Source: Octopus sinensis (Eukaryota). From it: DNA of 64,000 nt. The stretch spans positions 127,286,001 to 127,350,000 of the forward strand of contig NC_042999.1 of the NCBI RefSeq assembly GCF_006345805.1. The letters are read 5' to 3'. Below are positions 1,115 through 36,207 of this stretch, piece after piece. The notes beneath the pieces were generated by a model. That model saw only the letters and a list, made by a program, of their open reading frames with translations. It ran no database searches and had not been told where the DNA came from. A program made the translations under genes and the position numbers. Position 1 is the first letter of the stretch; each line of letters opens with the position of its first letter.

Positions 1115-1325
1115 TGTGACCACGTGTGTACCGTTGGCGATTTGTTTTCCTCCGTCTTCGCTTCTCTGAATCTTTCCTTTTCCTATGTTTCTGACGAAGA
1201 GCTCCGCTCGAAACGTTAAACCCTCCTTCTTCCCTTCCTTCCTGAGTGTCCAATAATACTATATTTGTTCCACGTCCTCGCGATGTTGTGTTTTCTCTTT
1301 GTGTTTTCATTTTTGGATTAACTAT
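1115..1325 (+). mobile_element. Penelope-like terminal cassette with hammerhead ribozyme
   Basis: Flanked by (TA)n, contains the hammerhead at 1187-1221; homologous copies at 16440-16640 and 27985-28180. Confidence 0.7.
1187..1221 (+). ncRNA. Minimal type-I hammerhead ribozyme motif
   Basis: GTTT-CTGACGA-A-GAGC(TCC)GCTC-GAAA-CG-TT-AAAC: stem I GTTT/AAAC, stem II GAGC/GCTC, palindromic stem III ACGT, GUU cleavage triplet, one extra A after A9. Confidence 0.75.
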
Positions 1326-1346
1326 ATATATATGTATGTATATATA

Positions 1347-1575
1347 CTTTATTTAAAAGCAGCAGAATATAACAAAAGCTGTTATTCAGAGTTTCACGTA
1401 ATGATCATTATTGCTGTTCTATTTTAACAAAACTGTACGACGAACGGGAACATGAAACTCTGAATAACAGCTTTTGTTATATTTCTGCTGCTTTTAAATA
1501 AAGCGTATTACTCTACCTTTGGTATTTGAGTACTCTTTTTCCACCATGTTTCATATTTATGTGCTTACTCCAGTA
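1347..1575. mobile_element. Inverted-repeat cassette with degenerate hammerhead (1433-1470, +)
   Basis: Arms ~1348-1398 and ~1452-1503 are reverse complements; CTGT-acGACGA-ACG(GGAA)CaT-GAAA-CTCTGAaT-A-ACAG; flanked by (TA)n. Confidence 0.65.
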
Positions 1576-1576
1576 T

Positions 1577-1616
<40 letters not shown>

Positions 1617-2128
1617 CTAGCAGTATCGCCCGGCATTGCTCGGGTTTGTAAGGGAAATAACTATATAAGCATTTTTAGAGAGTTACTTCCCTTATAGATG
1701 CCAATTCGGGCTTTCTTAGCCATTTCTGTTTTGGTGTCTTCAAGCCATGAAGTCGTTGTTCTAAAAGAACGCTGGTCTCCTTGACAACGCATTACGACGT
1801 TGATTTCCTTACACTCCCTTCCCCACAGCTTCACGAGGGAGGGAAGAAGGGGGAGAAGCAAACAGGTGCAGGTGTGACCATGGACGCCAACTCCGCCGCC
1901 ATCGACACACGAAAAATTATGCATTAAAATGGAATAAAAAATGATGTTAAATTATTTTTAAAATCGTAGACTCATCGTAGACGCGTGCTAATACTCAGAC
2001 GGGCTCGATATGAATCACAACTATAAGATACCTGAATTTGGTTAAACTGCACCGCAAAATGTAGGAGTAGTTAGGAATCTAAATCGAAGGGGACATCACT
2101 CACACAACTACAGTTTTATATATATAGA
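1617..2128 (-). mobile_element. Non-autonomous Helitron
   Basis: Minus strand reads A|TC...CTAG|T, with subterminal hairpin CCCGAGCAATGCCGGG shortly before CTAG; homologous to 11122-11416. Confidence 0.85.
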
Positions 2129-2130
2129 TA

Positions 2131-3541
2131 TGATTGATTGATTCTAGTTTCAGCTCATGAGCTGTGGCCATGCTGGGGCACCGCCATTTGGTGTTGCTAC
2201 ATGGTTTTACTTCATGAATGCTTTTTAGCAACTGCCATTTGGTGCATGAGAGAGTTCAATGCAGCTGCCCTCATCTGCACCTCCTGCCGTGAAGTTGGTT
2301 CATCTGGGATACCTGACAAGAAGAGATCCAGTTTCATTTTAAAGACATCTGCATCCACCCCATGCAGGTCTCTTAGATTCTTCGGGAGGATATTGAAGAG
2401 CTGTGGGCCTCGGAAGCCCAGGCTATCACAGTATCTTGTCCTACATCTTGATGGCAAATTTGGAGTCCTAGGCACCACGCAGTGGCGCCCAGTTCTGGCA
2501 TTTGTGTAACTCTCGATGCCAAAGTTTGGGACAAGTCTCTCCAGGATCTTCCAGATGTATATTATGGCATATCTTTCTCGCCTACGCTCCAAGGAATAGA
2601 GTTTTAATCTCTTGAGTCTTTCCCAGTAGCTTATATTCTGCATAGAGGCTATCTTCTTCGTGTAGCTACGTTGAATCGCCTCAAGTTCTGTGATCAACTT
2701 GACACTGGATGGTGACCATAGCTGAGAGCAATAGTCAAAGTGGCTTAGGACAAGTGTCCTCCAGAGGACCATCATGGTTTCTTGTTCTCTTGTTCTAAAG
2801 GTTCTGAGAATCCATCCGGCCAGTCGTCTACATTTCATTGCCAATTTAGCAACATGTACATGAAAGGTTACGTCATCACTCATGTAAATACCCAGGTCAC
2901 GCACTGATTGTGCCTCTGGGATTGCAATTCCTCCGGGTCCAGTGTATTCATTGGGTATTGCATTTAGTTTTGCATGCTGATAGTATAAAGCTTGAAACTT
3001 TTCAGCATTGAACTGCATGCTATTCTTTTCAGCCCACTTTGTCCAGCTCACATTGCAGGCGTTTAGTGTCCTCAGGGTTCTGTATTGCCTGTGAAACTTT
3101 TGTATCATCTGCATAACTTGTGATCGTGGCTCTCTGCGTGGCTGAGGGCATGTCTGAGAGGGCCATTATAAACAGTAGTGGTCCTAAAACAGTGCCCTGC
3201 GGAACACCGCTCACTATTTGCGTGTTAATTCTATCTTTCAGAAAGTCACGAAGCCATTCTCCCAGTTTTCCAACTATGCTGAGATCACGCAGTTTGTGAC
3301 ATATCATTCCATGATCGACTTTATCAAAGGCCTTTGCAAAGTCGAGATATATCGCTTCCACATTTGAGTGGTTGAGCAGTCGTTTCAGCACCCAGTCATA
3401 GTGTTGTAGGAGCTGAGTTAAGCAGCTTCTCCCTGGTCGGAAACCATGTTGGGTGTCAGGCAGCAAGTCATTTTCTTCAAGGAAGGTGATCAGTTTCCTT
3501 CTGACTATTCATTCCATGACCTTGCTGATGTGTGAGGTCAG
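2131..3541 (-). mobile_element. 5'-truncated CR1/L2-group LINE, frameshifted reverse transcriptase remnant
   Basis: QHGFRPGRSC, YLDFAKAFDKVDH, SGVPQGTVLGPLLF, YADD, RDLG and LYSLERRRERY across ORFs 3029-3466 and 2212-3114; (AATC)n tail at 2131-2143. Confidence 0.93.
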
Positions 3542-3573
<32 letters not shown>

Positions 3574-3594
3574 TAATATATATATATATATATA

Positions 3595-3659
<65 letters not shown>

Positions 3660-3714
3660 TATATGTATATATATATATTATATATATTATATATATATAT
3701 ATGTATATATATAT
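3542..3714. repeat. (TA)n microsatellite
   Basis: Directly visible. Confidence 0.95.
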
Positions 3715-4450
3715 ACGACCTTCGGACGTTAGCCACGACCTTCGGACGTTAGGTCTCACCATGGAAATGGCTAGAGACCGAGACCTATGGAAGTATGCTG
3801 TGCGTGAGAAGACCCGGCAAGACTAGTGAAACCATAATCCGTGGCCCCTACCTGGGACGTAGTCAGTCCACCTGTGCATACCTTCCTTCTTGTGACACTT
3901 GTGAAGACCTGTTGAGGCAAGTGAGAATCGAATCAAATCAAATCAAATCAAATCGAACCAATCAAAATAGATGAACATCAATGGAATTTGTAACCTTGTG
4001 GTACCAGTGCCGGTGGCACATAAGAAAACCATCCGAACGTGATCGTAGCCAGTACCGCAACGACTGGCTCCGTGCTGAGGGCACGTAACAAACACCATCC
4101 GAGCATGGCCGTCCGCCAGCCCCGTCTGGCACCTGTGTCGGTGACACATAAGAAAACACCATCCGAGCGTGGCCGTCAGCCAGCCTCGTCTGGCACCTGT
4201 GTCGGTGGCACATAAAACACCATCCGAGCGTGGCCGTCTGCCAGCCTCGTCTGGCACCTGTGTCGGTGGCACATAAAATCACCCACTACACTCTCGGAGT
4301 GGTTGGCGTTAGGAAGGGCATCCAGCTGTAGAAACACTGCCAGATCTGACTGGCCTGGTGCAGCCTTCGGCTTGCCAGACCCCAGTTGAACCGTCCAACC
4401 CATGCTAGCATGGAAAGCGGACGTTAAACGATGATGATGATGATGATGAT
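3715..4450 (+). mobile_element. RTE-clade LINE 3' end (ORF tail, tandem-repeat 3' UTR, (GAT)n tail)
   Basis: HDLRTLGLTMEMARDRDLWKYAVREKTRQD* matches the ORF end at 20157-20474; 3' UTR is shared with many copies in the window. Confidence 0.88.
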
Positions 4451-4468
4451 ATATACATATATATATAT

Positions 4469-4540
<72 letters not shown>

Positions 4541-4683
4541 TCATAAATGAGGGTGAAAAATTAGATATTAATTTAATAATACCATCAGTTTAACACCAAG
4601 TGGCCTAGCACATAAAAAACCAGGGAGACAATACAAATTATACGAAAATGTAAGAGAGTTACCGTTAAGTGGTTACTCTAGTG

Positions 4684-4735
<52 letters not shown>

Positions 4736-5099
4736 ATATATTATATATATATATATATATATGTATGTATATATATATGACTTACAGGTGGAGATATGCA
4801 AATTTACTTATTCCTACAGGTTTGACAAATGTAATAGGTTCTCTATATAACTCATGAATGGGGGAGAGAGAAAAAGAGGTGAGAGTGGAAAAACAAAGAG
4901 AAAGATAGAGTAAAGATGAATAAGTCTATCTATAATGAATCTATAATGAATATTGCTGTGATTTCAAAAACTGACTAACCTAGTCCTCCACATGCAGAAA
5001 TGCAGTCATCAATAAATCAACAAATATATATAAAAATATATAATAAAGAATAGAAGAAATGAAAAGAGGAAGTGGGTAACAAAGAAGGAAAAGGGAGGT

Positions 5100-5107
5100 T
5101 ATGTGTA

Positions 5108-5146
<39 letters not shown>

Positions 5147-5685
5147 TTATGTGTGTGTTTGTGTGTGCGCGTGAGGGTGTGGTTGTGTGTGGTAAAAGAA
5201 GAGTAACTGAGGTGGAGGTCTGGGGGTGAGGGTGGAATGCTGTAAAGAATGAGAAAAAGAAAATATGAGAACAATATGCAAGTTAGGATGTGTTTGTGGA
5301 AAGTAAGTGAAACAGTAAGAAAAGAGAGGATATGGAGTGCGAGGTGGTAAATGTGAATAATAGAAGGACAAGGAGAAGGAGGTGGAGAAAGAAGAAGGGG
5401 GAGAAAAAGATAAAGGAGGAGGAGGAGGAAGCAGAAGAGAAGGAGGAGGAGGAAGCAGAAGAGAAGGAGGAGGAGGAAGCAGAAGAGGAGGGGAGGAGGA
5501 GGAGGAAGAGATGGGGAGGAGGAGGAAGAGATGGGGAGGAGGAGGAGGAAGGGGAGGGGAGGAGGAGGAGGGAAAAGAAGAGGTGGTGTCTGGTGGTGGT
5601 GCTGGTGCTGGTGGTAATAATAGTTGGAGTAGAAGGTGGAGTTGGAGGAAGAGGAAGAGGAGGAGGAGGAGGAGGAGGAGGCAGA

Positions 5686-5739
<54 letters not shown>

Positions 5740-6304
5740 CGTAGCAGCAGCAGCAGCAGTAGGAACAAAGGAAAAAGGAAGAAAGGAAAGGTAAGGAAAA
5801 GAAAATGAATAATACAGTATTAAGAAATAAAAACAGATATATAAGAAATGATGTATTATAGAGCAAAAGCAGGGTGGTGTTCTCTTTAGAGTGGGGAGAC
5901 ACAGAAGAACACCCACCCTAGGGGCTCTACTTGCCATGCCATCTCCCCCCACACACACTCACAACCCCCCATCCCCCACCCATTACCTTTCCCCCACCAG
6001 GAGTGAATGAGTGTGCAAGAGCAGGGGCAGGAGCATGAGCAGTGTTACTTGGTTGCACTTGTGCGACTAAAATGCTAAATGTTAGTAGGGCTGAATGTGA
6101 AACCTTCTGAGTACTTTCTGGAGAAAGAAAGGAAGGAAGAAAGAGCAGCAACAGACAGGACAGTAGGAGTGTGACTTCACATCTCTGAATGTGGTCCACT
6201 GGTGGTGGTGGTGGTGGTGGTGATGGTGGTAGGAGTATTGGTGGAGGTGGTGGTAGTGAGAGTGGGTAGATGGTGTGTATCTCTTAGGAAATGATTTCTG
6301 TTAT

Positions 6305-6372
<68 letters not shown>

Positions 6373-6677
6373 ATGTTGCACAGGTGAAGTATAATAAGCA
6401 TGTAACAGAGTGAGAGAGAGAAGGGATGGGGGGAAGGAGAAATGGCAAGAGAGAGAAAGTTTAGTGAGAGAGAGAGAGGGAGAGCGGAAGAGAGAAAATG
6501 AAAAAGACATAGACAGACAGAGAGCAAACAAAAGAGAGGATGAGAGAGAGCTAGTCAAAGAGAAGCAGAAAGAGAGTGAGAGAGAGAGAGAGAATGAGAG
6601 CCATAAACAGTGAGAGTAAGCAAGAGAGAGGATGAGAGAGCTAGACAAAGAGAGAGAGAGAATGTGATAGAGGGAAG

Positions 6678-6752
<75 letters not shown>

Positions 6753-9604: not shown

Positions 9605-11074
9605 ACCTTTGTAGACCACCAGGGTCTGGTATGCGAGGAATGAAGACGGTGTCACCTTTACCACAGCCAATGAGAATATTTGCTTCATTGCAGTTCCTCA
9701 TAAGGTTGTGCACAATTAATCTCATACATCGCATTATTTGGGTTGAGACAAATTATGCAATAGCATAATAGGAGTCCCTTTTTTCAGCTGAAGACAATGA
9801 GGAGCTGTACCAGGTGGTTCTAGTAAATTAAAAAATTCGATGGGTAGTTAACATTATCCTGATCATCAACAACACTGTCAATTGAGTTATAAGTGAATGT
9901 TTCTCCTGGAAGCTTATTCAACAGCATATTATTAATGCTATGTACTGCAACATTTTTTGGAGCCAGGATAGCTCACTCCCAAATCCAATCTGCATTGTGG
10001 TAATTATGAATAAAATTAGAAAAGATTTCATCCACCAAATCATCGATGGAATGAGTTGAATTACATATTGGATTGAATGTAAGAAACTGTTCTTCATCAA
10101 TTGGAAGTCTCCCTTCACCGAGTTTCAAAAGCTACTCTGCAAATAGTTCAGCTGATTGATGTCTTGAAAGCCTTGATCTTGTATTTGTTCAATGTTGAAG
10201 TGTTTTCACATGATGCCATAATACAGAAGACTTTATTAAAGCATTGAGGTCATCCACTTTAGTTACTCTTGGTAGTGTTTGTCAGAAGTCTCCTGACAAT
10301 AATATCATATAATTGCCATTATGGAATTGCAACTTCTACTGTCTCATAATGTTCTGTCAACAGCTTCAAAAGCATTTTTGAGGGCCATGGTACATTTGTC
10401 CCAGACAATTAAGTAACATCTTTGTATTAGTTCACCCATTGCAGAATTTTTAGATATATTACAAACCGGATCTTGTTTGTTAGATGAATCTAAAAGTAAT
10501 TTGAATGTTGATTGGGCAGTCCAACCTCTGGGTAGTAATGTTGCTGCAATCCCAAAAGTAGCTGTAGTTAAAGCTATTTTATTTTCTTGACGAACTTTAG
10601 CCAGGAGGAGTTTAATTACAAATGTCTTCCCAGTACTTCCTGGAGCATCTAAGAGATAAAGCCCTCCTGTGTTATTGTTTATACTTTCTATGACAGTGGA
10701 ATATGCATGACGTTCTCAGGCAGAAGCTTGGGAAGATTATCATTTATGTACATGGTCAGTTCATCCTTATCATAGCAAATTTCTCTTGTTATTTCAATAG
10801 AGAAAGAAAGAGAGGGAAAACAGACAGATAGAGAAGAAAGAAAACCATAGAGATGGTGTCTGGTTTTAGTTTCACTTTGTGGGACAAACAAAGAGACAGA
10901 ATCTCTTTGAAGTAGCATGGCAGAGAGACAGACAAGCAGACAGACAGAGAATATAGAGGGAGAGAGAGAATAAAGGAGACATAGAAAGAAAATCATAGAG
11001 AGATGGTGCCTGGCTTTAGTTTCACTTTGTGGGACAAACAGACGAACAGACAGAATCTTTTATATATATATAGA
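9605..11074 (-). mobile_element. Helitron remnant with decayed PIF1-type helicase
   Basis: Minus strand LDAPGSTGKTF (Walker A), [53 protein letters not shown] with stops; 5' A|TC(TA)n start at ~11074. Confidence 0.88.
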
Positions 11075-13911: not shown

Positions 13912-14095
13912 GAAGCCTTGTGAGTGGATTTGGTAAACGGAAACTGAAAGAAGCCCGTCGTATATATGTATATATATGTGTGTGTATATGTTTGTGTGTC
14001 TGTGTTTGTCCCCCCAACACCACTTGACAACCGATGTTGGTGTGTTTACATCCGATAGGATAAGTACTAGGCTTGACTAAAGTCGGTGCTCCAGT
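13912..14095 (+). mobile_element. SINE type A internal fragment
   Basis: AAGCCTTGTGAGTGGATTTGGTAAACGGAAACTGAAAGAAGCCCGTCG matches the copy at 735-1096. Confidence 0.75.
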
Positions 14096-14311
14096 ATATA
14101 TATATATAAATTTTAGGGTAGCAAAAAATTCTCCGCTACCAGCAGTCAAGTGAGAAAGAAGAAATAGTCAATAGACTATGTAATATACATTCAAACATAT
14201 AAGGGATGGCCATAATAGGACATCTGACTCACTAGAAAGAGCAGTTAAACTCCAAACCACTAATAGTTGTAATTCTGAAATGGAAAGAGAAATAAAAACG
14301 TTCACCCTATC

Positions 14312-14395
14312 CTTTCTGGATTATGCATAGTTTCTGCAATCTTTTGTAAATAAAATAAATTTATTTCCGACCGGCATTGACTCTTCAGCAGAAAG
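14312..14395 (-). ncRNA. Degenerate inverted copy of the hammerhead
   Basis: Same layout as 14520-14603, but stem II is GTCAAT/ATTGCA (mismatched) and the cleavage triplet is AUC. Confidence 0.7.
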
Positions 14396-14519
14396 CCAAG
14401 GACTAGCATATAGACACGAGGCGATAATAACCATGCCTCAGGTGGTAGATTTTGAAAAGTTATAGCATATAGACTCGAGGCATGGTTATTATTGCATCGT
14501 GCTATATGCTAGTCCTTGG

Positions 14520-14603
14520 CTTTCTGCTGAAGAGGCAATGCCAGTCGGAAATAAATTTATTTTATTTACAAAAGATTGCCGAAACTATGCATAGTCCAGA
14601 AAG
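14520..14603 (+). ncRNA. Canonical type-I hammerhead ribozyme
   Basis: Stem I CTTTCTG/CAGAAAG; core CTGAAGA; stem II GGCAAT/ATTGCC; GAAA; stem III ACTATGCATAGT (palindromic); GUC cleavage triplet ending at 14596. Confidence 0.88.
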
Positions 14604-14752
14604 GATAGGGTAAACGTTTTTATTTCTCTTTCCATTTCAGAATTACAACTATTAGTGGTTTGGAGTTTAACTGCTCTTTCTAGTGAGTCGGATGTCCTAT
14701 TATGGCCATCCCTTATATGTTTGATTATATATGTATATATATATATATATAT

Positions 14753-15290
14753 ATCATCATCATCATCATCATCATCGTTTAACGTCCGCTTTCCATGCTA
14801 GCATGGGTTGGACGGTTCAACTGGGGTCTGGCAAGCCCAAAGGCTGCACCAGGCCAGTCAGATCTGGCAGTGTTTCTACAGCTGGATGCCCTTCCTAACG
14901 CCAACCACTCTGAGAGTGTAGTGGGTGATTTTATGTGCCACCGACACAGGTGCCAGACGAGGCTGGCAGACGGCCATGCTCGGATGGTGTTTTTTATGTG
15001 CCACCGACACAGGTGCCAGACGAGGCTGGCAGACGGCCACACTCGGATGGTGTTTTCTTATGTGCCATCGACACAGGTGCCAGATGAGGCTGGCGAACGG
15101 CCACGATCGGATGGTGTTTGTTACGTGCCCACAGCACAGAGGCCAGTCGATGCGGTACTGGCTACGGCCACGTTTGGATGGTTTTCTTGTGTGCCACCAG
15201 CACTGGTACCACAAAGATACAAATTCCATTGATGTTCATCTATTTTGATTTGGTTTGATTTGATTTGATTTGATTTTCATTTGATTTGAT
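14753..15290 (-). mobile_element. RTE 3'-end fragment (young)
   Basis: Near-identical reverse complement of ~3930-4445. Confidence 0.88.
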
Positions 15291-16439: not shown

Positions 16440-16640
16440 TTGAGCACCACCAGCAAAAAAATTTTTTTCCTCTGTCTTCCCTTCTCGGGATCTTTCCTTC
16501 TCCTTTGTTTCCGACGAAGAGCTCCGCTCAAAACGTTAAACCCTCCTTCCCTTCTTTCCTGAGCGTCAATAATACTTTAATTGTTCCACGTCCTTGCGTT
16601 GCTGTGTTTTTTTTCTGTGTTTTCTTGTTTGGATTAACTA
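16440..16640 (+). mobile_element. Penelope-like cassette with mutated hammerhead (16507-16541)
   Basis: Homolog of 1115-1325; GTTT-CcGACGAA-GAGCTCCGCTC-aAAA-CGTT-AAAC. Confidence 0.65.
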
Positions 16641-16880
16641 TATATATATATATATATATACACACCTATACATATATATATATATATAATATATATATAT
16701 TGTTTGTAGAAAACATAAATCCGGAGAAGAAGCACACTCTAAGAAGGCCGGTTTATGGGATTACCCAGGGTAATCCCATAAACTGGCCTTCCCCAATAAA
16801 AAAAAAAATACATATATATTTATTTAAGGTGTACTCCATTGGCATCAAAGTCACAGCTTCACTAACAGGGTAACAATTGT

Positions 16881-16986
16881 ATATCACCTGAGGAGATATA
16901 ATAGGATCCCATATACAGGTAAACCGTTGCTTACTTTAAATCCTGTGTATATGTGGATCTATGTTGTATTGAAACATGTGTAATAT
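16881..16986 (+). ncRNA. Degenerate hammerhead with long stem II
   Basis: ATATCAC-CTGAGGA-[GATATAATAGGATCCCATATACAGG...CCTGTGTATATGTGGATCTATGTTGTATT]-GAAA-CATGT-GTAATAT; the cleavage nucleotide appears deleted. Confidence 0.6.
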
Positions 16987-16994
16987 TTATTAAA

Positions 16995-17600
16995 TAAATT
17001 TCTTTATTGGGCACATAGGGCTAGACACAGAGGGGACAGTTACAATGTAGAGTTTTTCTTTTCAAGGGGGGGGGGGGGGCGAAAACAAAGTAAAAAAAAC
17101 AAAAATAGGGACAATGATCAAAAGGGATTGAAATCGTTGGGGATATATGCAAAAAATGTCGAAATAGTACAAAAAGTTCCCAAGAAATGGGGAGGTTTAT
17201 CTGTGGAAAGAAAAACCTACGAAAAGACCACAGTAACCTCAGGCAATTACATCACATATTAACATATTTATTTACAAACAAGTAACTCTCTGTTTTAAAT
17301 TTTTACAGTTCATAGGATCATGCTCAAGGTGGCTTCGTCATTCATACATGTCATCCTTGCTATATTCACCCTTCTTTTTTTGAAACAGTCGCTAGACAAA
17401 AATTCCCTCTCTACACTCACCTTCCTTTTCAAGTGATACTTGTAAAAGTTGATGAGAAATTGACCAGAGAGGAAAGTGTTTGTCTCTAATCCTTTCAGAT
17501 ACATTCTTTTGCCATAGCCACAAGTATTATGAAAATAGCTCTTCCTTCCCGTTTGAAGGAAGGAGGCATGACGATAGCTGTCTAACCATATTCCTTCTTG
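16995..17600 (-). mobile_element. Probable L1/Tx1-like LINE 3' end
   Basis: Short decayed ORF end (17310-17504), pyrimidine-rich 3' UTR and AATAAA on the minus strand; clade assignment is by general resemblance only. Confidence 0.4.
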
Positions 17601-19362: not shown

Positions 19363-19661
19363 ATATATGGTTTCACTAGAGATGACAAGCTGAAGAGCTG
19401 CACCAGACTCCAGTCTAACTTGGCATGGTATCTATGGCTGGATTCCATTCTTAATTCCAATCACTTTACAAGTGTGCTGGGTACTTTTACATAGCACAGC
19501 AGGCACAGGTGCTTTTGTGCGGCACCATGCATGTTTATATATATGTATATATGTGCGTGCGTGTGTGTGTGTGCATATATACAAAGCTACATATACATAT
19601 ATATATATATCATGTTGTACTTAGAAGTGATGCACAGTGCTAAATATTATATATTATATAT

Positions 19662-20980
19662 GAAGGTAGACAAATCACAAACGCCTTCAGGTAGATGGCC
19701 CTGCTCGATCTGTAGAAAAGGTGTAGGTAGAAACTCTATAAGATGCACCAAGTGTAAGCTATGGACACATAAGAGGTGCAGCAATGTCAAAGGAAGGCTA
19801 ACTAGGAAGATGGTTTTTGTATGTGGCAGATGCTCAGGAACAATAAACACTGAAAATGCTCTGTCACTTTCCAGGGAGAAAAACTAGAAATAGTTGATAG
19901 CTTCCGTTACCTAGGTGACCAAGTCAGCAGTGGGGGTGGGTGTGCTGAAAGTGTAACTGCTAGAGTAAGAATAGCTTGGGTAAAGTTCAGAGAGCTCTTA
20001 ACTCTGCTGGTGACAAAAGGCCTCTCGCTCAGAGTAAAAGGCAGACTGTATGACGCATGTGTACAAACAGCCATGCTACATGGCAGTGAAACATGGGCCG
20101 TGACTGCTGAGGATATGCGTAAGCTCGCAAGAAATGAAGCCAGTATGCTCTGATGGATGTGTAATGTCAGTGTTCATACTCGACAGAGTGTAAGTACCTT
20201 GAGAGAAAAGCTGGACCTAAGAAGCATCAGATGTGGTGTGCAAGAGAGACGTTTGCACTGGTATGGACATGTGGCAAGAATGGATGAAGATAGTTGTGGG
20301 AAAAAGTGCCACACCCTAGCGGTTGAGGGAACCTGTGGAAGAGGCAGACCCAGGAAAATCTGGGACGAGGTGGTGAAGCACGACCTTCGAACTTTAGGTC
20401 TCACTGAGGAAGTGACTAGAGACCGGGACCTCTGGAAGTATGCTGTGCGTGAGAAGACCCGGCAGGACAAGTGAGACCATAACCCGTGGCCTTCTACATG
20501 GGATGTAGCCAGTCCACTTATGCATACCTTCCCTTCTTGGGACACAAAACTCTACAAGTGAGAATCAGAATCGAAATCGATAAATGGAAATTGCAGCTGA
20601 GTTACCAGTGCCGGTGGCACGTAAGAGAACCATCCGAACGTGGCTGTTGCCAGTGCCGCCCCAACTGGCCTCGTGCCACGTAAAAAGCACCATCCATTCA
20701 TGGCCGTTGCCAGCCAGCCTCGCCTAGCCCCCGTGCCGGTGGCACATAAAAAGCACCATCCGATCGTGGCCGTTTGCCAGACTCGTCTGGCACCTGTTGC
20801 GGTGGCATGTAAAAAGCACCCACTACACTCATGGAGTGGTTGGCGTTAGGAAGGGCATCCAGCCGTAGAAACATTGCCAGATCAAACTGGGCCTGGTGCA
20901 GCCTTCTGGCTTCCCAGACCCCAGTTGAACCGTCCAACCCATGCTAGCATGGAAAGTGGACACTAAACGATGATGATGAT
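19662..20980 (+). mobile_element. 5'-truncated RTE LINE: Cys/His finger, RT thumb, 3' UTR, (GAT)n
   Basis: WPCSICRKGVGRNSIRCTKCKLWTHKRC, FRYLGD, RLHWYGHVARM, GRGRPRKIW; internal stops. Confidence 0.92.
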
Positions 20981-26397: not shown

Positions 26398-26712
26398 GAG
26401 TAACAGTAGAGGTACAGGTGTCAATCCATTATACCCATTTCTAACTATATATAGAGACTGTATATTTAATATAATGTACATGTTTGAATAGCTCAAGAGC
26501 GGAATTCTTTACTCAGCTGGGGCAAATCGTTTACATACACTGCATGAATATCATTTGGCTGATACTTCTGTTTGATATTTACATAATATTATTGTGTATG
26601 TATATTATTCCGACCCTAACAAGGTGCCTCAATTTAAGTTCCTTATTCAACTGAATCTTATATATATATATATATATATATATGTATTTATGTATGTATA
26701 TATATATATATG

Positions 26713-27909: not shown

Positions 27910-27980
<71 letters not shown>

Positions 27981-27984
27981 GTAA

Positions 27985-28180
27985 CCGCATGTGCATCATT
28001 GGCTATTTTCTTCCTCCATCTTCCCTTCCTTTCGACTGCCTCCATTTCTGAAGAAGAGTAAGGCTCGAAACTTTCAATCCTCTTTCCTTCCTTTCCTGAG
28101 CTTATGATAATACAGTACTTGTACCACTTCCTCACATTATTGTTTTTTCTTGTTTGTTCTTCTTTGTTTGGATTCACTAT
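27985..28180 (+). mobile_element. Penelope-like cassette with degenerate hammerhead (28044-28078)
   Basis: Diverged homolog of 1115-1325; CTGAAGA-A-GAGT(AAG)GCTC-GAAA-CTTT. Confidence 0.6.
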
Positions 28181-29106: not shown

Positions 29107-29160
<54 letters not shown>

Positions 29161-29370: not shown

Positions 29371-29457
<87 letters not shown>

Positions 29458-29505
29458 CATATATACACACCCACATACAAAATAGTATATAGTATATAAA
29501 ATATA

Positions 29506-29598
<93 letters not shown>

Positions 29599-29599
<1 letters not shown>

Positions 29600-30698: not shown

Positions 30699-30868
30699 CT
30701 TAGAAAAACTGAAGGACTGCTGCAATAAGTGTGTGAATCTGAGAGGGAAATATATTGAATAAAATCATAACTGATCCTCCTGTATGTTCTATTATCCAAA
30801 GCCAGGAACTTTTCAGCAGCCCCTCATATATACATAAAATGTATATTGCATATATCATGTACATGTAC

Positions 30869-30941
<73 letters not shown>

Positions 30942-30997
30942 TATTGTTCCATGAAAGAAAATTCAACAAAAAAAGGTACTCCATCACGTGAGAAATA

Positions 30998-31175
30998 AAT
31001 ATTATTCATTTAAAGGACACATTAGAGCTACTAATAGTTTCATATGTTGAAAAATATCTCAAACACATTCTTCAGGCACAGACCACATATCATAAGAAAC
31101 TAAAAAATATTTCTCAACATATGAAACTATTAGTAGCACTCAAAGACATGTATTGTGTCCTTTAAATAAATAATG
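30998..31175. mobile_element. Inverted-repeat cassette with hammerhead (31028-31079, -)
   Basis: Minus strand GTGC-CTGAAGA-ATGTGTT...AACATAT-GAAA-CTATTAG-TA-GC; the opposite arm repeats GAAACTATTAGTAGCAC. Confidence 0.75.
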
Positions 31176-31178
31176 TGC

Positions 31179-31232
<54 letters not shown>

Positions 31233-31380
31233 ATCTAAAAATAGGATAAAATCTTTATCCGAATTTATCAAGTAGTCAGCGTGAAAAACCTTATAAGGGA
31301 AAAATTATAATTATTCCTTTTAAATATATTTATTTATATTAAGGGTATTACTACACATAAATGACGTTGATATAAATAAT

Positions 31381-31443
<63 letters not shown>

Positions 31444-31451
31444 GAATATAT

Positions 31452-31592
31452 TCAGTTGTGTCTGGGGAGAGTCATTTTCTTTTTGTGCCTTATAATGTAA
31501 CACACACACCGGTAAAATTTCCACTTATTTCTTATTTTTACTTTCCTAAAATTGTCGTTGCGTCTTGCAACCTTTTCAATAGTCTTGACTCT
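31452..31592 (-). mobile_element. (TA)n-embedded cassette with variant hammerhead-like motif (31546-31582)
   Basis: Homologous to 35586-35675; CTA-TTGAAAA-G-GTTGC(AAGAC)GCAAC-GAcA-ATTT-TAG. Confidence 0.5.
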
Positions 31593-31629
31593 CTATATAT
31601 TCATATATATATATATATCATATATATAT

Positions 31630-31701
<72 letters not shown>

Positions 31702-32639
31702 ATGTATCATATATGTATATATGTATACATATATGTGTGTAACAAGCTTCTACATCTTCACTCCACTAAATTCATTCACAATGTCCAAAGCTATAGTAAA
31801 AGACAAGACCAAAATGCCACATAGCATATCTGAACCTGGAATCATAAGGCTATGAAAAGAACTTCTCAACCACACAGCCATATCTTGTAGGATATAATTT
31901 GAGAGAAATTTGGCTGCTATGTGTAAAAGGCAGAAGAACTATATTTAGATTCCTTCATATCTCAACAATGGCATTGCATATATTCCAATATTTCAAATAT
32001 TTCAATGATAGCATCACAGCTAGCCAAAATAATAAAGATGTTAAATTTCACAACTAGAGATCTGAGTTGTCAGTAGATAGATGTTTTGCTGTTGGTCAGG
32101 GTTGCTTTTATCTATCTGTTTTATGTCTTGTTAAAAAAGATGTTCAGTGTTACATGCTGGAGGATGTAGAAAGAGACAGATATGTCACACATCTGGGTAG
32201 GATACATTTAAAGTGTACCACAAGGATATCCTATAAGAGTTGTCCATAGTTCTGACTAAACTCTCTTATCAGTAGATGATGTTTTACTCTCAAAGTTTTT
32301 TCATGACTGACAGAGTTTGTTAAAAATAGTTGAGTAAGAAGACAGATAATAAATAAATATATATATATATATATATAAAGGAGAAAACATATAACTTGAT
32401 TTTAGAATAAATCAATTTTATTATTCTTCGCATGATTGCATTACCAAAGATTGGATCTCGGATTCCTGACAATAACAGACTGTAAATTCCTTTCAGGCTC
32501 TTCCTTGTTATAAAAGTATATATGTATGTATGCATGCATACATGCATGTATGTATGTATGCATGTGTGTGTGTGCATGCATGCGTGTTTGCATTTGTATG
32601 TATATATGTGCATATGTACATATGCATGTATATATTTTT

Positions 32640-33400
32640 AGTTATTTAAAGTCTTCCTATAGGAGAGGATCTGATTTCTAACAACAATTCAAAGCTCTGT
32701 CATTGGAACATAGATAACAAAAACAATGTCACAGTTTGAGAAAAGTCTTACATATATTTATTGTTTTGCTTACAAATTGCATTTGTGATGTGCTTCTTAG
32801 CTGATGGATTTCTTTTTCTGAAAACTCCCGTATCAATTTGTATTGGCATAAATGTGAATTTATAATCTGAGTAGAGAAACTGAAGGTTTCAAAGCAGTTG
32901 TCCATAGTTATCCTCTTTCTGTTTTTCAAAGAGATATTCATATCAGCAGATGGCTGACCTCTATGTCAGTACATACTTTTTCTTATCAGTCCAGTACAAT
33001 TATGTCTGGCCTCTTTGCATTTGGTAGAAGTTTTTATAAAAATGTTTCACCAATATTCCTTGTGTTGACGTTTATGTATGTATTCAATAACAGGATGATT
33101 TTCTATATTTATTCCAGAACAATCTTTTTTGGGATGGCATTCTATATTGTTTTAGTGACAACATTACGTTGCATTAGGAAGTTGTATCTGGGGCAGCTAC
33201 CAACCACATGTGTGATGTCTTCCACAGAAATGTGCCATAACTGACATTTTTGGTTGCATCTTGGGGCATCAAAGTCTTCAATTTCACTTTTGTTTATTGG
33301 CATTTTGTGGTAATCTCCTATGCTTGGACTGCAAAACAAAGTGTGATGTGATATGATAAAGAAATTATGGGCTATTCTGATACTTGTAGCAGCAGCAGAT
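32640..33400 (-). mobile_element. Old R4/Dong-like LINE 3' fragment
   Basis: KCQLWHISVEDITHVVGSC (decayed CCHC finger) and RPDIIVLD-like endonuclease motif. Confidence 0.65.
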
Positions 33401-33532
33401 GCAAGCATGTAGTAACTGGAACTTTAGGAAAGAAATGGTAGGAAATTAAAATCCCAAACTAAAACAATTGCAGAAATACTCTCTTTTTGAAATATTCCTT
33501 TGTAAAATTCATAACATCAGAAATGACCCAGT

Positions 33533-33797
33533 TCTATATTTAAGAGATGAGGAATTATGTACATTATTTACATTATTTACATTTGATGGATATTTATCCT
33601 TACCTTGTTTGTTGTTAACACAACGTTTTGGCTGATATACCCTCTAGCCATCATCATGTGTCTTGGGGAAATTTCGAACCTGGGTTCTCATTCCTAAGGT
33701 ATTTTTCAATGTTATTATTATCATTATATCCATCAAATGTAAATAATGCAAATAATGTAAATAATGTACATAATTTCTCATCTTTTAATTATAGAAG
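33533..33797. mobile_element. Inverted-repeat cassette with degenerate hammerhead (33617-33662, -)
   Basis: Arms ~33533-33591 and ~33727-33797; minus strand GACAC-aTGATGA-T-GGCT...AGCC-aAAA-CGTT-GTGTT. Confidence 0.65.
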
Positions 33798-34789
33798 TGT
33801 ATTATCTAATCGGTACGGAGCCAACATTAGACTTCAATGGAGACATAAAGAGAAACTCCATCAAAAACTAGCTTGTCTTTCAAACCATCTAACTGTTGAG
33901 ACTCAAGGCTAATATCACCTGGCTTGAATATAATGACACCAGTCGATTCATATAAAGCTAAAAGAGTAGCGGAAAGGGAAGGACATAACCTCGTCTGTGA
34001 GATGATCCATTAAAACCGTTGGAAAAAACATCAACTAAATAACAAAATCAAAGAAATGTTATCTTCATTACTTAGGAAAATAACCAGAGTTGATGATAGA
34101 AAGAGACACCAACAAGATCTAGAAAAGTTGTACTTGAAAGAAGTTGAAATGGTGAAGACATGCCAGATTAAGAAATTTATAGAGCTCAAAGGTCAGAGAA
34201 TGGAGACTCTGAAAGCAGTAATTAACACCGGAAGTTGTTGTTGACAAACAACAGCAGTAATTTTATTCAGCTGAATACACAACATTGATTGGTTGGATTT
34301 ACTGAAATAAGACTACTTTAACACGAAATAACTTTGAAAATACAAACTTTTCTCAACAACACTAAGAGTAAAAGATGTTTTATATGATGCATTCTACCAA
34401 TGTCCGAAGTTTGAAAGTGTTTGGTTACAAAAAATTAATTTCTTGATCTGCCATTCAAAGGGTAAATATCCAACATAACTAGTCTGGGAACTTTTTGATA
34501 CCACCTCATATTGTAGTAACAGACTAATGAGGGACCACTCTAGTATATTCAACCCTGTGTAGCTTTATACTGATGTTGTATATTTTGCCATACAGAATGG
34601 CATTAAACTAATGTGGTTTGAAATAGAACTGTACAGAAACAGTTGTAACTATTAAATTTGTGCTACAGTTACTCTACAGAATTCTTACACACCATTTACA
34701 CCAATGGTGAGCACCTGGAATTCCTGCACTAATGGACTTATTTTAATCAGAATGCCAGTCTTAGAGTCTTAGAGAGTAGATGTCCAGCA

Positions 34790-34849
<60 letters not shown>

Positions 34850-34949
34850 TGATTAAAACAATTTGATTCAAATTTATTGGTACTCTTGAGTTTCAAGCGT
34901 GATGCTAATCATCAGCCATTCTGAATTTGAATGACAGAAGTTGATTGTT

Positions 34950-35300
34950 ATTACCATAAGATGGGCTGTGATTGGTCGAGAACAGTCATGCAGTGTCATG
35001 GTTTGATGTTGGAAAATACTGCATGGTGAACAGGAAACTGACCATGCAGAGGCTATCAATTAAGAAATCAATCAAGTTGTTGGGGAGGGAAGTTGGAAGA
35101 GGCAGCATGTGCAAGTTTGTGCCAAAACTATTTTCAGCTGATCAAAATGCTCCTTGGGTTTCATTTCCACAAGACCTCCTTCATTGTGTCAAGAATGATG
35201 AAAACTTTGTGTAAGCCTCTGAGCAGGTATCGCCAAGCTTTTGGCAAAACTAGATGAAGATTCTCTGTCCAACTTTGTCATGTTCAATGCAATGAACACA
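34950..35300 (+). mobile_element. Decayed mariner-like fragment
   Basis: CKFVPKLFSADQ resembles the mariner WVP..L linker motif. Confidence 0.4.
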
Positions 35301-35486
35301 TGCCAAACTCCTTCCTTCCAAGCACTACTGTAAATAGCAGAAGTGAGCTACAATATCAAAACTTAGTGTGCATGTACAGCAGAGTTTAAGGTCAATCTGT
35401 GCCTAGCAGCTTTACTCTCTGCTTTAGTTTCATTACTATAGCAACAGACCAGATACTTATTGATCAGACCACACACACACACACAC

Positions 35487-35584
<98 letters not shown>

Positions 35585-35585
35585 C

Positions 35586-35727
35586 TCTGTTGTATCTGGG
35601 AAGAGTCATTTTCTTTTTGTGCCTTATAATGTAACACTCGCCGGTAAAATTTCCACTTATTTCTTATTTTTATTTTATACATTATAAGGCACAAAAAGAA
35701 AATGACTCTCTCCTGACACAACAGCAT
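35586..35727. repeat. Inverted-repeat cassette (same family as 31452-31592)
   Basis: Arms ~35586-35633 and ~35676-35727 are reverse complements; adjacent to (TA)n. Confidence 0.8.
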
Positions 35728-36207
35728 ATGCTTCAACACCCGAACTCTTATAAAGAATATTGCAAACCAAATAAAAAAACGAAATATATATATATATAAA
35801 TCCCAAAAACGGAACAAGAACATAACAGACAACAATGAAAACATACGGACAGATGTATGATACAAAGACGGACAGGAAAACCAGGACAGAACATTTGTGG
35901 CTTTCTATTCATCAGTCAAGCTTCCAATCATCATTACAGTTTTGGCCTTTTTACACTTGAGACTGTTCAAAATTGGTAGGCCACAAAAATCTAAGCTAAG
36001 GGCATTAAATTTTTGGAAGAAAGTGAGTGAGTATGTGCAACAATACAGACAAAAAAATGAGAAAATGGAGAAAATGTTACACGATTACAAATACAAACAA
36101 CAAGAATAACAACAGGTGTCTTTCAACCAAAAGGACAAGTTAAGTTAAGCTGGCATGTGGAGTGGAAGCCTTGCGGCAATAAACATAGATTAATAGTCAA
36201 CTATATA

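What the first reader, a model, noticed from the sequence alone, without database searches (positions are those of the whole stretch)
1115..35920. About 12 sequence-diverse hammerhead cassettes embedded in (TA)n microsatellites
Seen: hammerhead-architecture motifs at 1187-1221(+), 1433-1470(+), 14520-14603(+), 14312-14395(-), 16507-16541(+), 16881-16986(+), 26475-26519(-), 28044-28078(+), 31028-31079(-), 31546-31582(-), 33617-33662(-) and weakly ~35890-35915(-). Stems differ between families, but the core and palindromic stem III are retained. Most lie in 150-500 bp ORF-less cassettes next to (TA)n, and no Penelope ORF is visible in the window. Inference: a large multi-family system of (TA)n-targeting non-autonomous ribozyme retroelements that protein-based annotation would miss. 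Palindromic stem III suggests cleavage as dimers, as described for minimal hammerheads of Penelope-like elements.
Basis: partly seen in the sequence, partly recalled or inferred. Interest (0 to 1): 0.72.

Follow-up and report, generated by a model that had tools for sequence, protein, structure and literature searches.

The report
Penelope-type hammerhead repeats in TA microsatellites
Eight of the twelve flagged sites are copies of five short, protein-free repeat families of an octopus-like genome that carry Penelope-type minimal hammerhead ribozyme motifs, mostly ending on TA microsatellites; they are likely copied by Penelope-like retrotransposons, a known kind of element, and their predicted self-cutting is untested.

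Summary
Partly confirmed. Of 12 claimed sites, 8 belong to five dispersed repeat families (A-E, 200-500 bp, at least 480 to 2556 candidate copies each). Their majority sequences carry a complete type-I hammerhead: CUGANGA, helix II, GAAAC, a short and mostly palindromic helix III, UH, helix I. Only two window copies (1187-1221, 14520-14603) are intact; six are decayed. Three sites (1433, 26475, 31546) are not hammerheads. The twelfth (35890) is one strand of a different, rearranged hammerhead-like family.

A strict motif scan gives 3 hits in the window against 0.20 in shuffles. One of the three (49754) proved to be chance.

(TA)n directly follows the 3' end in 26 of 30 (A), 19 of 33 (B) and 19 of 21 (D) copies, against 7% of background 30-mers. 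The most abundant of the autonomous Penelope-like elements I sampled ends on (TA)n in 12 of 12 copies. Families B and D lie in the window as head-to-head inverted pairs whose outer ends sit at two fixed 3' points, a Penelope-type footprint.

This matches published minimal Penelope hammerheads and animal retrozymes, so it is a new member of a known kind. No autonomous partner sharing sequence was found, and neither cleavage nor expression was shown. Earlier notes of this scan describe similar elements in this and other genomes.

The parts
1108..1323 (+). Family A copy, about 215 bp. Hammerhead at 1187-1221 is intact: GUUU|CUGACGA|A|GAGC-UCC-GCUC|GAA-ACGU|U|AAAC.
   Evidence: At least 2072 candidate copies. 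20 of 32 genomic copies pass the strict scan.
1324..1347 (.). (TA)n-rich tract directly after the 3' end of the family A copy.
   Evidence: 26 of 30 family A copies have (TA)>=4 within 30 nt 3' of the element, against 7.2% of background 30-mers.
14109..14439 (-). Family B, left arm of a head-to-head inverted pair. Hammerhead 14312-14395 has mutated helices II and III. The outer end lies at the distal fixed 3' point (...CTACCCTAAAATT), on (TA)n at 14095-14108.
14442..14725 (+). Family B, right arm. Hammerhead 14520-14603 is intact: CUUUCUG|CUGAAGA|GGCAAU..AUUGCC|GAA-AC-UAUGCAUA-GU|C|CAGAAAG. The outer end lies at the proximal fixed 3' point (...TATGTTTGA), on (TA)n at 14726-14754.
   Evidence: At least 775 candidates. 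17 of 29 copies pass the strict scan. The unit is about 460 nt and continues head-to-tail in L026.
16462..16639 (+). Family A copy with a decayed hammerhead at 16507-16541 (CCGACGA, CAAAAC), flanked by TA repeats on both sides.
16815..16995 (+). Family E copy, truncated at its 3' end. Hammerhead 16881-16986: CUGAGGA, an ~85-nt helix II hairpin, GAA-AC-AUGU-GU|A. Helix I is only CAC/GUG in the family majority and is mutated in the window copy.
   Evidence: At least 480 candidates. 0 of 26 copies pass at helix I >= 4 and 7 of 26 at >= 3.
27975..28180 (+). Diverged family A-like copy. Hammerhead boxes at 28044-28078 are intact (CUGAAGA, GAAAC), but helix III (ACUU) and helix I are broken. TA repeats lie on both sides.
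30937..31100 (-). Family D main copy. Hammerhead 31028-31079: CUGAAGA, 7+3 bp helix II, GAA-AC-UAUUA-GU|A. Helix I is cut by a deletion in the window copy; the majority reads GUGC/GCAC. The 3' end lies on (TA)n at 30874-30936.
   Evidence: At least 1349 candidates. 13 of 29 copies pass. 19 of 21 have (TA)n 3' of the element.
31107..31181 (+). Family D inverted, 5'-truncated partial copy that starts inside helix II. It ends at a second fixed 3' point, about 75 nt upstream of the main copy's end, on (TA)n at 31182-31232.
33530..33727 (-). Family C copy. Hammerhead 33617-33662 is decayed (AUGAUGA, CAAAAC). The family majority is intact: GACAC|CUGAUGA|A|GGCUG..CAGCC|GAA-ACGU|U|GUGUU. (AAT)n lies at its 5' side. 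An inverted partial copy lies at 33726-33799(+).
   Evidence: At least 2556 candidates. 11 of 37 copies pass. (AAT)n-type microsatellite 5' in 31 of 33 copies; (TA)n 3' in 1 of 27.
35800..36030 (-). Family P1: a permuted hammerhead-like element, not type I.
- Helix P 5' strand 36023-36018; hairpin 36014-35985; helix II 5' strand 35982-35979.
- ACAGU-C|UCAAG 35966-35956, with the predicted cut after 35961.
- GGCC-(G>A)AAA-CUGU 35947-35936.
- CUUGA-CUGAUGA 35920-35909; helix P 3' strand 35906-35900.
- (TA)n at 35798-35784.
The window copy has lost G12.
   Evidence: 7 S-G-C hits at the family position in 19 loci. 13 of 21 copies have (TA)n 3' of the element.
1433..1470 (+). Not a hammerhead. It is the loop of a long inverted repeat (1347-1503) and has no CUGANGA.
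   Evidence: Judged from the window copy only; no family search was made.
26475..26519 (-). Not supported. Both the window copy and the majority of 24 genomic copies read CUGAGUGA ... CAGAC/CAAAC, so G8 and the GAAA box are missing.
31546..31582 (-). Not supported. The family majority reads CUAUUGA ... GCAACGAAAA; only a hairpin followed by GAAA is present.

Best explanation
Families A, B, D, and less surely C and E, are short non-coding retroelements that carry a Penelope-type minimal type-I hammerhead motif and are likely copied into (TA)n microsatellites by the reverse transcriptase/GIY-YIG endonuclease of autonomous Penelope-like elements (PLEs) of the same genome.

Shown by the sequence:
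- The motifs and their intact family majority sequences.
- The copy numbers.
- The (TA)n 3' junctions.
- The variable 5' ends.
- The head-to-tail 1.9-unit copy of family B.
- The head-to-head inverted pairs with two fixed 3' end points.
- The abundance of PLE ORFs whose own 3' ends sit on (TA)n.

Inferred:
1. The elements are transcribed, in part as longer-than-unit RNAs.
2. Two hammerheads pair through the palindromic helix III into a double hammerhead that would cut after H17.
3. The monomer may be ligated into a circle.
4. A PLE endonuclease nicks (TA)n, and the RT starts at one of two internal sites of the RNA. This would give the two fixed 3' ends and, by priming on both DNA strands, the inverted pairs.
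5. Inserted copies then decay neutrally, which would explain why only 2 of the 8 window copies are intact.
For: - Motif above chance: 3 strict hits against 0.20 in shuffles; none of 300 shuffles reaches 3, and none has helix I >= 6 together with helix II >= 5 as family B does.
- Family majorities keep the full core in five unrelated sequences, with different but pairing helices I and II. Strict-scan passes among genomic copies: A 20/32, B 17/29, C 11/37, D 13/29, E 7/26 at helix I >= 3.
- Features match published PLE minimal hammerheads. These include an unpaired nucleotide 5' of helix II (A, C), a 4-5 bp helix I, a long helix II (D, E), a palindromic helix III, mostly solo copies, and pairs 100-700 bp apart on opposite strands (PMC4209133, passages read).
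- PLE-borne hammerheads of the same style occur next to GIY-YIG ORFs of this genome: L077 96-173 and 453-491(-), L064, L069.
- (TA)n 3' junctions: A 26/30, B 19/33 at point 1 and 9/20 at point 2, D 19/21, against 7.2% background.
- The most abundant PLE among those sampled (781-aa ORF) ends ...TTTTTACAAA+(TA)n in 12 of 12 copies, 2 of them with a ~30-nt tail.
- At least 5029 GIY-YIG candidates, many with open frames of 600-883 aa.
- The units are short and do not run into coding sequence.
- B cofold: the dimer is -46.3 kcal/mol against 2 x -15.3 for monomers, with a 12-bp intermolecular helix III and both helices II formed.
- L026 holds 1.9 B units head-to-tail between two (TA)n tracts.
- Two RT start sites and a 'tail' are described for a PLE in vitro (PMC11167929, passages read).
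Against: - No cleavage, circular RNA or transcription was shown.
- No autonomous PLE shares sequence with A-E beyond TA repeats, in 32 sampled PLE loci out of at least 5029 candidates.
- Family A's helices are only 4 bp, and its computed monomer and dimer folds are not the hammerhead fold.
- Family E passes the scan only at helix I = 3.
- Family C has (AAT)n at the 5' side of the hammerhead strand and no (TA)n. Its hammerhead might therefore lie antisense to the copied RNA, or it may use another partner.
- Published PLE minimal hammerheads cut poorly in vitro (PMC4209133), and hammerhead mutants did not impair insertion by a PLE in vitro (PMC11167929).
- The copies examined are the 24-37 best matches to the window copy, not a random sample.
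Confidence: 0.72

Rival explanations
1. The cassettes are not independent non-autonomous families. They are ordinary 5'-truncated or solo terminal (pLTR / 3'-UTR) fragments of autonomous Penelope-like elements, so the hammerheads are simply those of the PLEs themselves.
For: - PLE hammerheads lie in pLTRs, and most occur as solo copies (PMC4209133).
- PLE copies of this genome are strongly 5'-truncated.
- Only 32 of at least 5029 GIY-YIG loci were compared, so a matching PLE could have been missed.
Against: - In 24-29 loci per family, homology stops after 200-500 bp and never runs into an ORF.
- Family B's ends join head-to-tail into a closed ~460-nt unit.
- BLAST of A-E against the 32 PLE loci finds only TA repeats or separate inserted copies.
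Confidence: 0.13
2. They are SINE-like repeats mobilised by non-LTR (LINE) enzymes, and the hammerhead is an inherited relic without a role. The (TA)n would be a LINE-type microsatellite tail.
For: - Family C has a tRNA-like B-box (GGTTCGAA) and a trinucleotide microsatellite on one side.
- LINE RT fragments lie in the window.
- Retrozyme mobilisation by LINEs has been considered possible (PMC7229834).
Against: - The only autonomous elements found here ending on (TA)n are PLEs, in 12 of 12 copies.
- The one candidate LINE 3' end that I tested (1618-1880) is a young element without a regular TA tail, 9 of 26 copies.
- Two fixed 3' points and head-to-head pairs are PLE traits (PMC8557442, PMC11167929).
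- Five unrelated families all keep the core.
Confidence: 0.08
3. The motifs are chance matches in AT-rich repeats.
For: - The loose core pattern is only borderline enriched: 9 against 3.8, with 2 of 100 shuffles reaching 9.
- One strict hit (49754) and four claimed sites proved spurious or different.
- Rfam reports nothing.
Against: - None of 300 shuffles reaches the strict count.
- Five family majorities carry the complete motif, with the same idiosyncratic GAAAC-palindrome-GU design as the PLE-borne hammerheads of this genome.
Confidence: 0.03

Closest known systems
Minimal (min-HHR) type-I hammerheads of Penelope-like elements (Cervera & de la Pena 2014, PMC4209133; passages read)
   Same: - Core CUGANGA ... 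GAAA.
- Very short or absent helix III with a palindromic sequence, implying dimers.
- Helix I of 4-5 bp.
- Long helix II.
- An unpaired base 5' of helix II.
- Thousands of mostly solo copies.
- Pairs on opposite strands 100-700 bp apart.
   Different: Here the motifs sit in 200-500 bp units that do not continue into a PLE ORF, and the host is a cephalopod. My word searches found cephalopod hammerheads in print only as an Rfam count of 235 'hammerhead 1' loci in the giant squid (PMC6962438).
Animal non-LTR retrozymes (Cervera & de la Pena 2020, PMC7229834; Li, Clavereau & Pollet 2026 preprint 10.64898/2026.07.22.740005; abstract and passages read)
   Same: - Non-coding units of ~170-500 nt with a type-I hammerhead.
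- Low GC.
- Tandem-capable (B: 1.9 units in L026).
- Co-exist with PLEs and are proposed to be PLE-mobilised.
   Different: - Here most copies are solo or shorter than one unit: 27 of 28 B loci have a single hammerhead.
- Circular RNA and expression were not shown.
- The (TA)n junctions and two fixed 3' points are read directly from the copies.
Autonomous EN+ Penelope-like elements and their insertion footprint (Craig et al. 2021, PMC8557442; Frangieh et al. 2024, PMC11167929; passages read)
   Same: - (TA)n as preferred target.
- An inverted 5'-truncated copy next to the main copy.
- An optional 3' 'tail' explained by two RT start sites.
   Different: - The elements here encode no RT/EN.
- The distance between the two 3' points is ~75-95 nt rather than 30-40 nt.
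Non-circularly permuted hammerheads, types SGC/CSG/GCS (Eckert et al. 2023, PMC10085705; passages read). This applies to families P1/P2 only.
   Same: The substrate strand comes before the GAAA strand, which comes before the CUGANGA strand, so helices I and III cross.
   Different: - In P1/P2 the helix II 5' strand is separated from CUGAUGA and lies upstream of the substrate strand.
- A9 and position 10.1 are joined through an extra helix P plus a hairpin.
- The paper treats the three blocks as uninterrupted, and found none in a genome of a known organism except one candidate.

Membership tests
Hammerhead ribozyme, type I | Conserved core: C3 U4 G5 A6 N7 G8 A9, G12 A13 A14, the A15.1-U16.1 pair, and H17 not G. 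| tested here: met
   Met in window copies 1187-1221 and 14520-14603 and in the majority sequences of families A-E. Not met in window copies 16507 and 33617, nor at 1433, 26475 and 31546.
Hammerhead ribozyme, type I | Three helices in the order I-core-II-core-III-cleavage-I, with helices that pair in different sequences. | tested here: met
   Helices I and II pair in all five families with unrelated sequences. Helix I is only 3 bp in E and 4 bp in A and D.
Hammerhead ribozyme, type I | Site-specific self-cleavage after H17. | not testable with these tools
   No raw RNA reads were on hand; the runs were contigs only, and their being RNA is a guess.
Hammerhead ribozyme, type I | Match to the curated Rfam hammerhead models. 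| tested here: not met
   No hammerhead family at the gathering score, none among the 150 of 154 matches shown at E<=10 for the window, and none for 14280-14640 alone. A 34-nt loop II and the near-absent helix III probably explain this (inference).
PLE minimal hammerhead (min-HHR) | Helix III absent or 1-2 bp with a palindromic sequence that allows a dimeric double hammerhead. | tested here: met
   A and C: ACGU. B: AC-UAUGCAUA-GU. D: ACUA-U-UAGU. E: ACAUGUGU (with G.U pairs). The B dimer fold forms a 12-bp intermolecular helix III. The computed dimer of A does not adopt the hammerhead fold.
PLE minimal hammerhead (min-HHR) | Location in the terminal repeat (pLTR) of an element encoding RT plus a GIY-YIG endonuclease. 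| tested here: not met
   There is no PLE ORF in the window. A-E units do not extend into ORFs and do not match 32 sampled PLE loci.
Animal non-LTR retrozyme | Non-coding unit with a type-I hammerhead, occurring as head-to-tail repeats. | tested here: inconclusive
   B: 1 of 28 loci holds two hammerheads in tandem (L026, 459-nt period), and long copies run on into the next unit. Tandems were not examined for A, C, D and E.
Animal non-LTR retrozyme | Expressed as linear and circular RNA of unit length. | not testable with these tools
   No RNA holder is on record. Contigs cannot show ends or circles.
PLE-type insertion footprint | (TA)n target, variable 5' end, inverted 5'-truncated partner, and two alternative 3' ends ('tail'). 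| tested here: met
   Met for B and D. A meets the (TA)n and variable 5' end criteria only. C is not met for (TA)n.
Type-SGC permuted hammerhead (for P1/P2) | Three uninterrupted blocks in the order S, G, C, with C = helix I strand + CUGANGA + helix II strand. | tested here: not met
   The S, G, CUGAUGA order is present, but the helix II 5' strand lies upstream of S and is joined to A9 through helix P and a hairpin.

The most novel reading that the evidence does not exclude
The twelfth site is a worn copy of a hammerhead wired in an order not found in print. The order is: helix II strand, substrate strand, GAAA strand, then CUGAUGA, with the core chain broken between A9 and helix II and re-joined by an extra helix and hairpin.

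Two unrelated families of this genome share this design, P1 (at least 1258 candidates) and P2 (at least 1662). All five helices differ in sequence between them but pair in both. P1 also ends on (TA)n.

If it cuts, animal retroelements use a split-core, non-circularly permuted hammerhead that standard descriptors cannot see. Earlier notes of this scan reported the same design elsewhere in this genome.
Probability: 0.5. Interest if true: 0.8.

Novelty: new member of a known kind. Interest (0 to 1): 0.45.

Why it matters
The five families add cephalopods to the animals whose genomes carry thousands of Penelope-type hammerhead repeats.

The copies themselves give direct sequence evidence for an idea that is proposed but unproven, namely that Penelope enzymes copy ribozyme-bearing non-coding RNAs. 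That evidence is the (TA)n junctions, the two fixed 3' points, the head-to-head pairs, and a copy longer than one unit.

They also show that Rfam-based annotation misses these motifs entirely. The permuted family at 35890 is the part that could change what counts as a hammerhead.

Tried and rejected
- **Rfam.** Scans at the gathering score, at E<=10 and on a 361-nt stretch listed no hammerhead. The other hits are microsatellite or hairpin look-alikes of miRNA models.
- **Expression.** No RNA holder is listed. The 24 runs are contigs, and their being RNA is a guess. Laying 4 runs on 14110-14740 showed short contigs of family B pieces and a few joints that cannot be told from other genomic copies; no ends could be read. 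This says nothing either way.
- **Autonomous partner.** I compared 12 GIY-YIG loci and 20 longer PLE stretches with A-E. Only TA repeats and separately inserted copies matched.
- **LINE with a TA tail.** The stretch 1618-1880(-) downstream of the RT fragment at 2215-3508(-) is a separate, very young repeat (98-100% identical copies). It has (TA)n after it in 9 of 26 copies and no regular tail.
- **The ORF at 2215-3165(-).** It has RT-linked homologues; the best named one is from Argonauta hians. It has no GIY-YIG, so it is not a PLE.
- **The 49754 hit.** This strict hit is chance.
- **The S-G-C permuted scan.** It finds nothing in the window itself, against 0.28 expected in shuffles, because the window copy of P1 has lost G12.
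- **A script that timed out.** One search gave nothing and was redone with BLAST.
- **Literature word searches.** 'hammerhead ribozyme' + 'cephalopod' gave 4 papers (2 listed). 'hammerhead' + 'octopus' + 'retrotransposon' gave 5 papers (4 listed). None describes these elements. Supplements were not read.

Full report
**Setting.** The window is bases 127,286,001-127,350,000 of contig C3 of a 2.72-Gb, 13,516-contig animal genome. It is AT-rich (GC 0.29-0.43) and full of TA/TG microsatellites. At E<=10, Rfam mistakes these microsatellites for miRNA hairpins. The best named relative of a LINE-type ORF in the window comes from the octopod Argonauta hians, so the genome is octopus-like.

- The loose core pattern CTGANGA-N6-30-GAAA is only borderline enriched: 9 matches against 3.83 +/- 1.99, with 2 of 100 shuffles reaching 9.
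- My strict type-I scan finds 3 hits: 1191-1221(+), 14527-14603(+) and 49754-49815(+). It requires CTGANGA, helix II of at least 3 bp (one unpaired base allowed at its 5' end), GAAA, a helix III pair or palindrome, U followed by a non-G base, and helix I of at least 4 bp.
- In 300 dinucleotide-preserving shuffles the mean is 0.20 and the maximum 2. No shuffled hit has helices as long as the one at 14527 (helix I 7 bp, helix II 6 bp).
- Rfam lists no hammerhead family at the gathering score, among the 150 of 154 matches shown at E<=10, or on the 361 bases around 14527 alone.

**Families.** Each site was used as a DNA query against the window's own genome. These searches score only the 40 best of the candidates, so the counts are lower bounds and the samples lean towards the window copy. 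Eight sites fall into five repeat families whose majority sequence carries a complete hammerhead.

| Family | Window sites | Unit | Candidates | Majority hammerhead |
|---|---|---|---|---|
| A | 1187, 16507, 28044 | ~215 bp | at least 2072 | GUUU\|CUGACGA\|A\|GAGC-UCC-GCUC\|GAA-ACGU\|U or A\|AAAC |
| B | 14520(+), 14312(-) | ~460 nt | at least 775 | CUUUCUG\|CUGAAGA\|GGCAA..UUGCC\|GAA-AC-UAUGCAUA-GU\|C\|CAGAAAG |
| C | 33617(-) | ~200 bp | at least 2556 | GACAC\|CUGAUGA\|A\|GGCUG..CAGCC\|GAA-ACGU\|U\|GUGUU (window copy has A3 and A12) |
| D | 31028(-) | not determined | at least 1349 | GUGC\|CUGAAGA\|7+3-bp helix II\|GAA-AC-UAUUA-GU\|A\|GCAC |
| E | 16881 | not determined | at least 480 | CAC\|CUGAGGA\|~85-nt hairpin\|GAA-AC-AUGU-GU\|A\|GUG |

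Among genomic copies that cover the motif, the strict scan passes 20 of 32 (A), 17 of 29 (B), 11 of 37 (C) and 13 of 29 (D). For E it passes 0 of 26, or 7 of 26 if helix I may be 3 bp. The helices differ completely between families yet pair in each. All five keep C15.2-G16.2 next to A15.1-U16.1, followed by a short self-complementary stretch.

Only two window copies are intact (1187 and 14520). The other six carry inactivating changes.

**Sites that fail.**

- 1433 is the loop of an inverted repeat and has no CUGANGA. I judged it from the window copy alone.
- 26475 and 31546 lack the boxes, both in the window and in the majority of 24-25 genomic copies.
- The strict hit at 49754 lies in a 39-nt satellite whose majority lacks the box. 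That fits the roughly 0.2 chance hits expected per window.

**The twelfth site.** The stretch 35890-35915(-) is the CUGAUGA strand of a family I call P1 (at least 1258 candidates).

- *Order of parts.* The family majority reads, in order: helix P strand, a hairpin, GGCC(U), ACAGU-C|UCAAG, (A)GGCC-GAA-ACUGU, CUUGA-CUGAUGA, helix P strand. The substrate strand therefore precedes the GAAA strand, which precedes CUGAUGA. The helix II 5' strand lies upstream of all three. A9 is joined to helix II only through an extra helix and hairpin.
- *Second family.* P2 (at least 1662 candidates) has the same design, with different sequences in all five helices. Of 24 copies, 15 pass an S-G-C scan.
- *Window copy.* The P1 copy in the window has lost G12, so the scan finds nothing in the window itself, where 0.28 hits are expected by chance.
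- *Comparison with print.* Eckert et al. 2023 (PMC10085705, passages read) describe types SGC, CSG and GCS with uninterrupted blocks, and none in a genome of a known organism except one candidate. P1/P2 fit the strand order but not the uninterrupted C block.
- *Status.* I followed this only in part. Cleavage is untested.

**Surroundings and footprint.**

- *(TA)n at the 3' end.* (TA)>=4 lies within 30 nt after the 3' end in 26 of 30 A copies, 19 of 33 B copies at the proximal end point, and 19 of 21 D copies. Background is 7.2% of 19,532 30-mers. At the distal B end point it is 9 of 20 (within 55 nt), for E 5 of 13 (within 42 nt), and for P1 13 of 21 (within 36 nt).
- *Family C.* C differs. 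A trinucleotide (AAT)n-type repeat lies 5' of the hammerhead strand in 31 of 33 copies, and (TA)n lies 3' in only 1 of 27.
- *5' ends.* They vary in A and B.
- *Family B unit.* B copies that read past the proximal end continue into the start of the next unit. Locus L026 holds 1.9 units head-to-tail, with a 459-nt period, between two (TA)n tracts. Of 28 B loci, 27 have a single hammerhead within 1.5 kb.
- *Inverted pairs.* In the window, B, D and C each lie as a main copy plus an inverted, 5'-truncated partner, head to head. In B and D the two outer ends are two different fixed points of the unit, about 95 and 75 nt apart, and each abuts (TA)n.

**Autonomous elements.**

- The window has no PLE ORF. 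Pfam finds RVT_1 in three ORFs but no GIY-YIG, and tblastn with three PLE ORFs of this genome finds nothing.
- The genome has at least 5029 GIY-YIG candidates, many inside open frames of 600-883 aa.
- The most abundant PLE family among those I sampled (781-aa ORF) shows graded 5' truncation. It ends ...TTTTTACAAA followed by (TA)n in 12 of 12 copies, two of them with an extra ~30-nt tail.
- Other PLE loci carry hammerheads of the same style, with helix III reading ACAUAUGU, ACUCGAGU or ACGAUCGU.
- None of the 32 sampled PLE loci shares sequence with A-E beyond TA repeats.

**Mechanism.** What is shown is the motif, its family-level conservation, the copy structure and the junctions. What follows is inferred.

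1. Transcripts that contain two units, or two RNAs, pair through the palindromic helix III into a double hammerhead and would cut after H17.
2. The computed B dimer supports this. It is 15.7 kcal/mol more stable than two monomers and forms both helices II and a 12-bp intermolecular helix III, whereas the monomer's best fold is not the hammerhead.
3. Family A's computed folds are not the hammerhead.
4. The monomer may be circularised.
5. A PLE endonuclease nicks (TA)n, and the RT starts at one of two internal sites. This was shown for a lizard PLE in vitro (PMC11167929) and would give the two 3' points. Priming on both strands would give the inverted pairs.

That same paper found hammerhead mutants still competent for insertion, and PMC4209133 found weak cleavage by minimal PLE hammerheads. 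The ribozyme's role in the cycle is therefore open.

**Comparison and novelty.**

- Minimal dimeric hammerheads in PLE terminal repeats, their genome-wide solo copies and their opposite-strand pairs are described in PMC4209133.
- (TA)n targeting, inverted partners and tails are described in PMC8557442.
- Non-coding hammerhead repeats of animals ('non-LTR retrozymes') and their likely PLE origin are described in PMC7229834 and in the preprint 10.64898/2026.07.22.740005.
- In cephalopods my word searches found only an Rfam count of 235 'hammerhead 1' loci in the giant squid (PMC6962438). A 2026 Octopus vulgaris repeat paper does not contain the word hammerhead (PMC13282606).

The five families are therefore new members of a known kind. 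Earlier notes of this scan report a 470-488-base hammerhead retrozyme and split-core permuted hammerheads elsewhere in this same genome, and (TA)n hammerhead fields in other genomes. My family B and P1/P2 agree with them. I checked these points on my own loci only as described above.

**Limits.**

- There are no wet data and no raw RNA reads.
- The copy samples are biased and hold 24-37 copies per family.
- The partner PLE was not identified.
- Family C's polarity is unexplained.
- Supplements of the cited papers were not read.

Noticed in passing
window 35800-36030(-); L214-L232; L125 1215-1425; L274-L297: Two unrelated repeat families, P1 and P2, share a hammerhead-like design. The order is helix II strand, substrate strand, GAAA strand, CUGAUGA. 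An extra helix plus hairpin joins A9 to helix II, and all five helices differ in sequence between the families. 15 of 24 P2 copies and 7 P1 hits in 19 loci pass an S-G-C scan.
   Followed up: partly
L079 4790-4830 and 11 further PLE copies: The 3' UTR of the most abundant sampled 781-aa Penelope family holds UUGAUAA-GGUUC..GAACU-GAAAC-AUGU-U in all 12 copies. This is a hammerhead-like motif with U at position 3 and A at position 8. From recall, not from a call, that could keep the C3-G8 pair as U-A. Helix I is poor.
   Followed up: partly
window 33530-33799: Family C carries an intact-majority hammerhead and a tRNA-like B box (GGTTCGAA). It has an (AAT)n-type repeat at the 5' side of the hammerhead strand in 31 of 33 copies and no (TA)n. 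In the window this repeat lies at the centre of the inverted pair, the reverse of what is seen in B and D.
   Followed up: partly
window 1618-1880: A very young repeat (at least 761 candidates, copies 98-100% identical) ends ...GATACTGCTAG and is followed by varied AT-rich flanks. It is probably a recently active element of another class.
   Followed up: partly
window 1347-1503 and 35582-35729: Long near-perfect inverted repeats (MITE-like). Rfam scores them as plant miRNA precursors far below the gathering score.
   Followed up: no
window 49680-49815; G000:C6:114003644-114005855: A 39-nt satellite unit (AGGCACCTGTGCCAGTGACACATAAA...) forms long tandem arrays elsewhere in the genome and lies next to several Penelope copies.
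   Followed up: no
window 10347-10715(-), 19495-19884(+), 55342-55411(+): A PIF1-like helicase fragment (likely Helitron-derived), a PHD-finger ORF, and a tRNA-like sequence just at Rfam's gathering score (29.5 bits; probably a SINE head).
   Followed up: no
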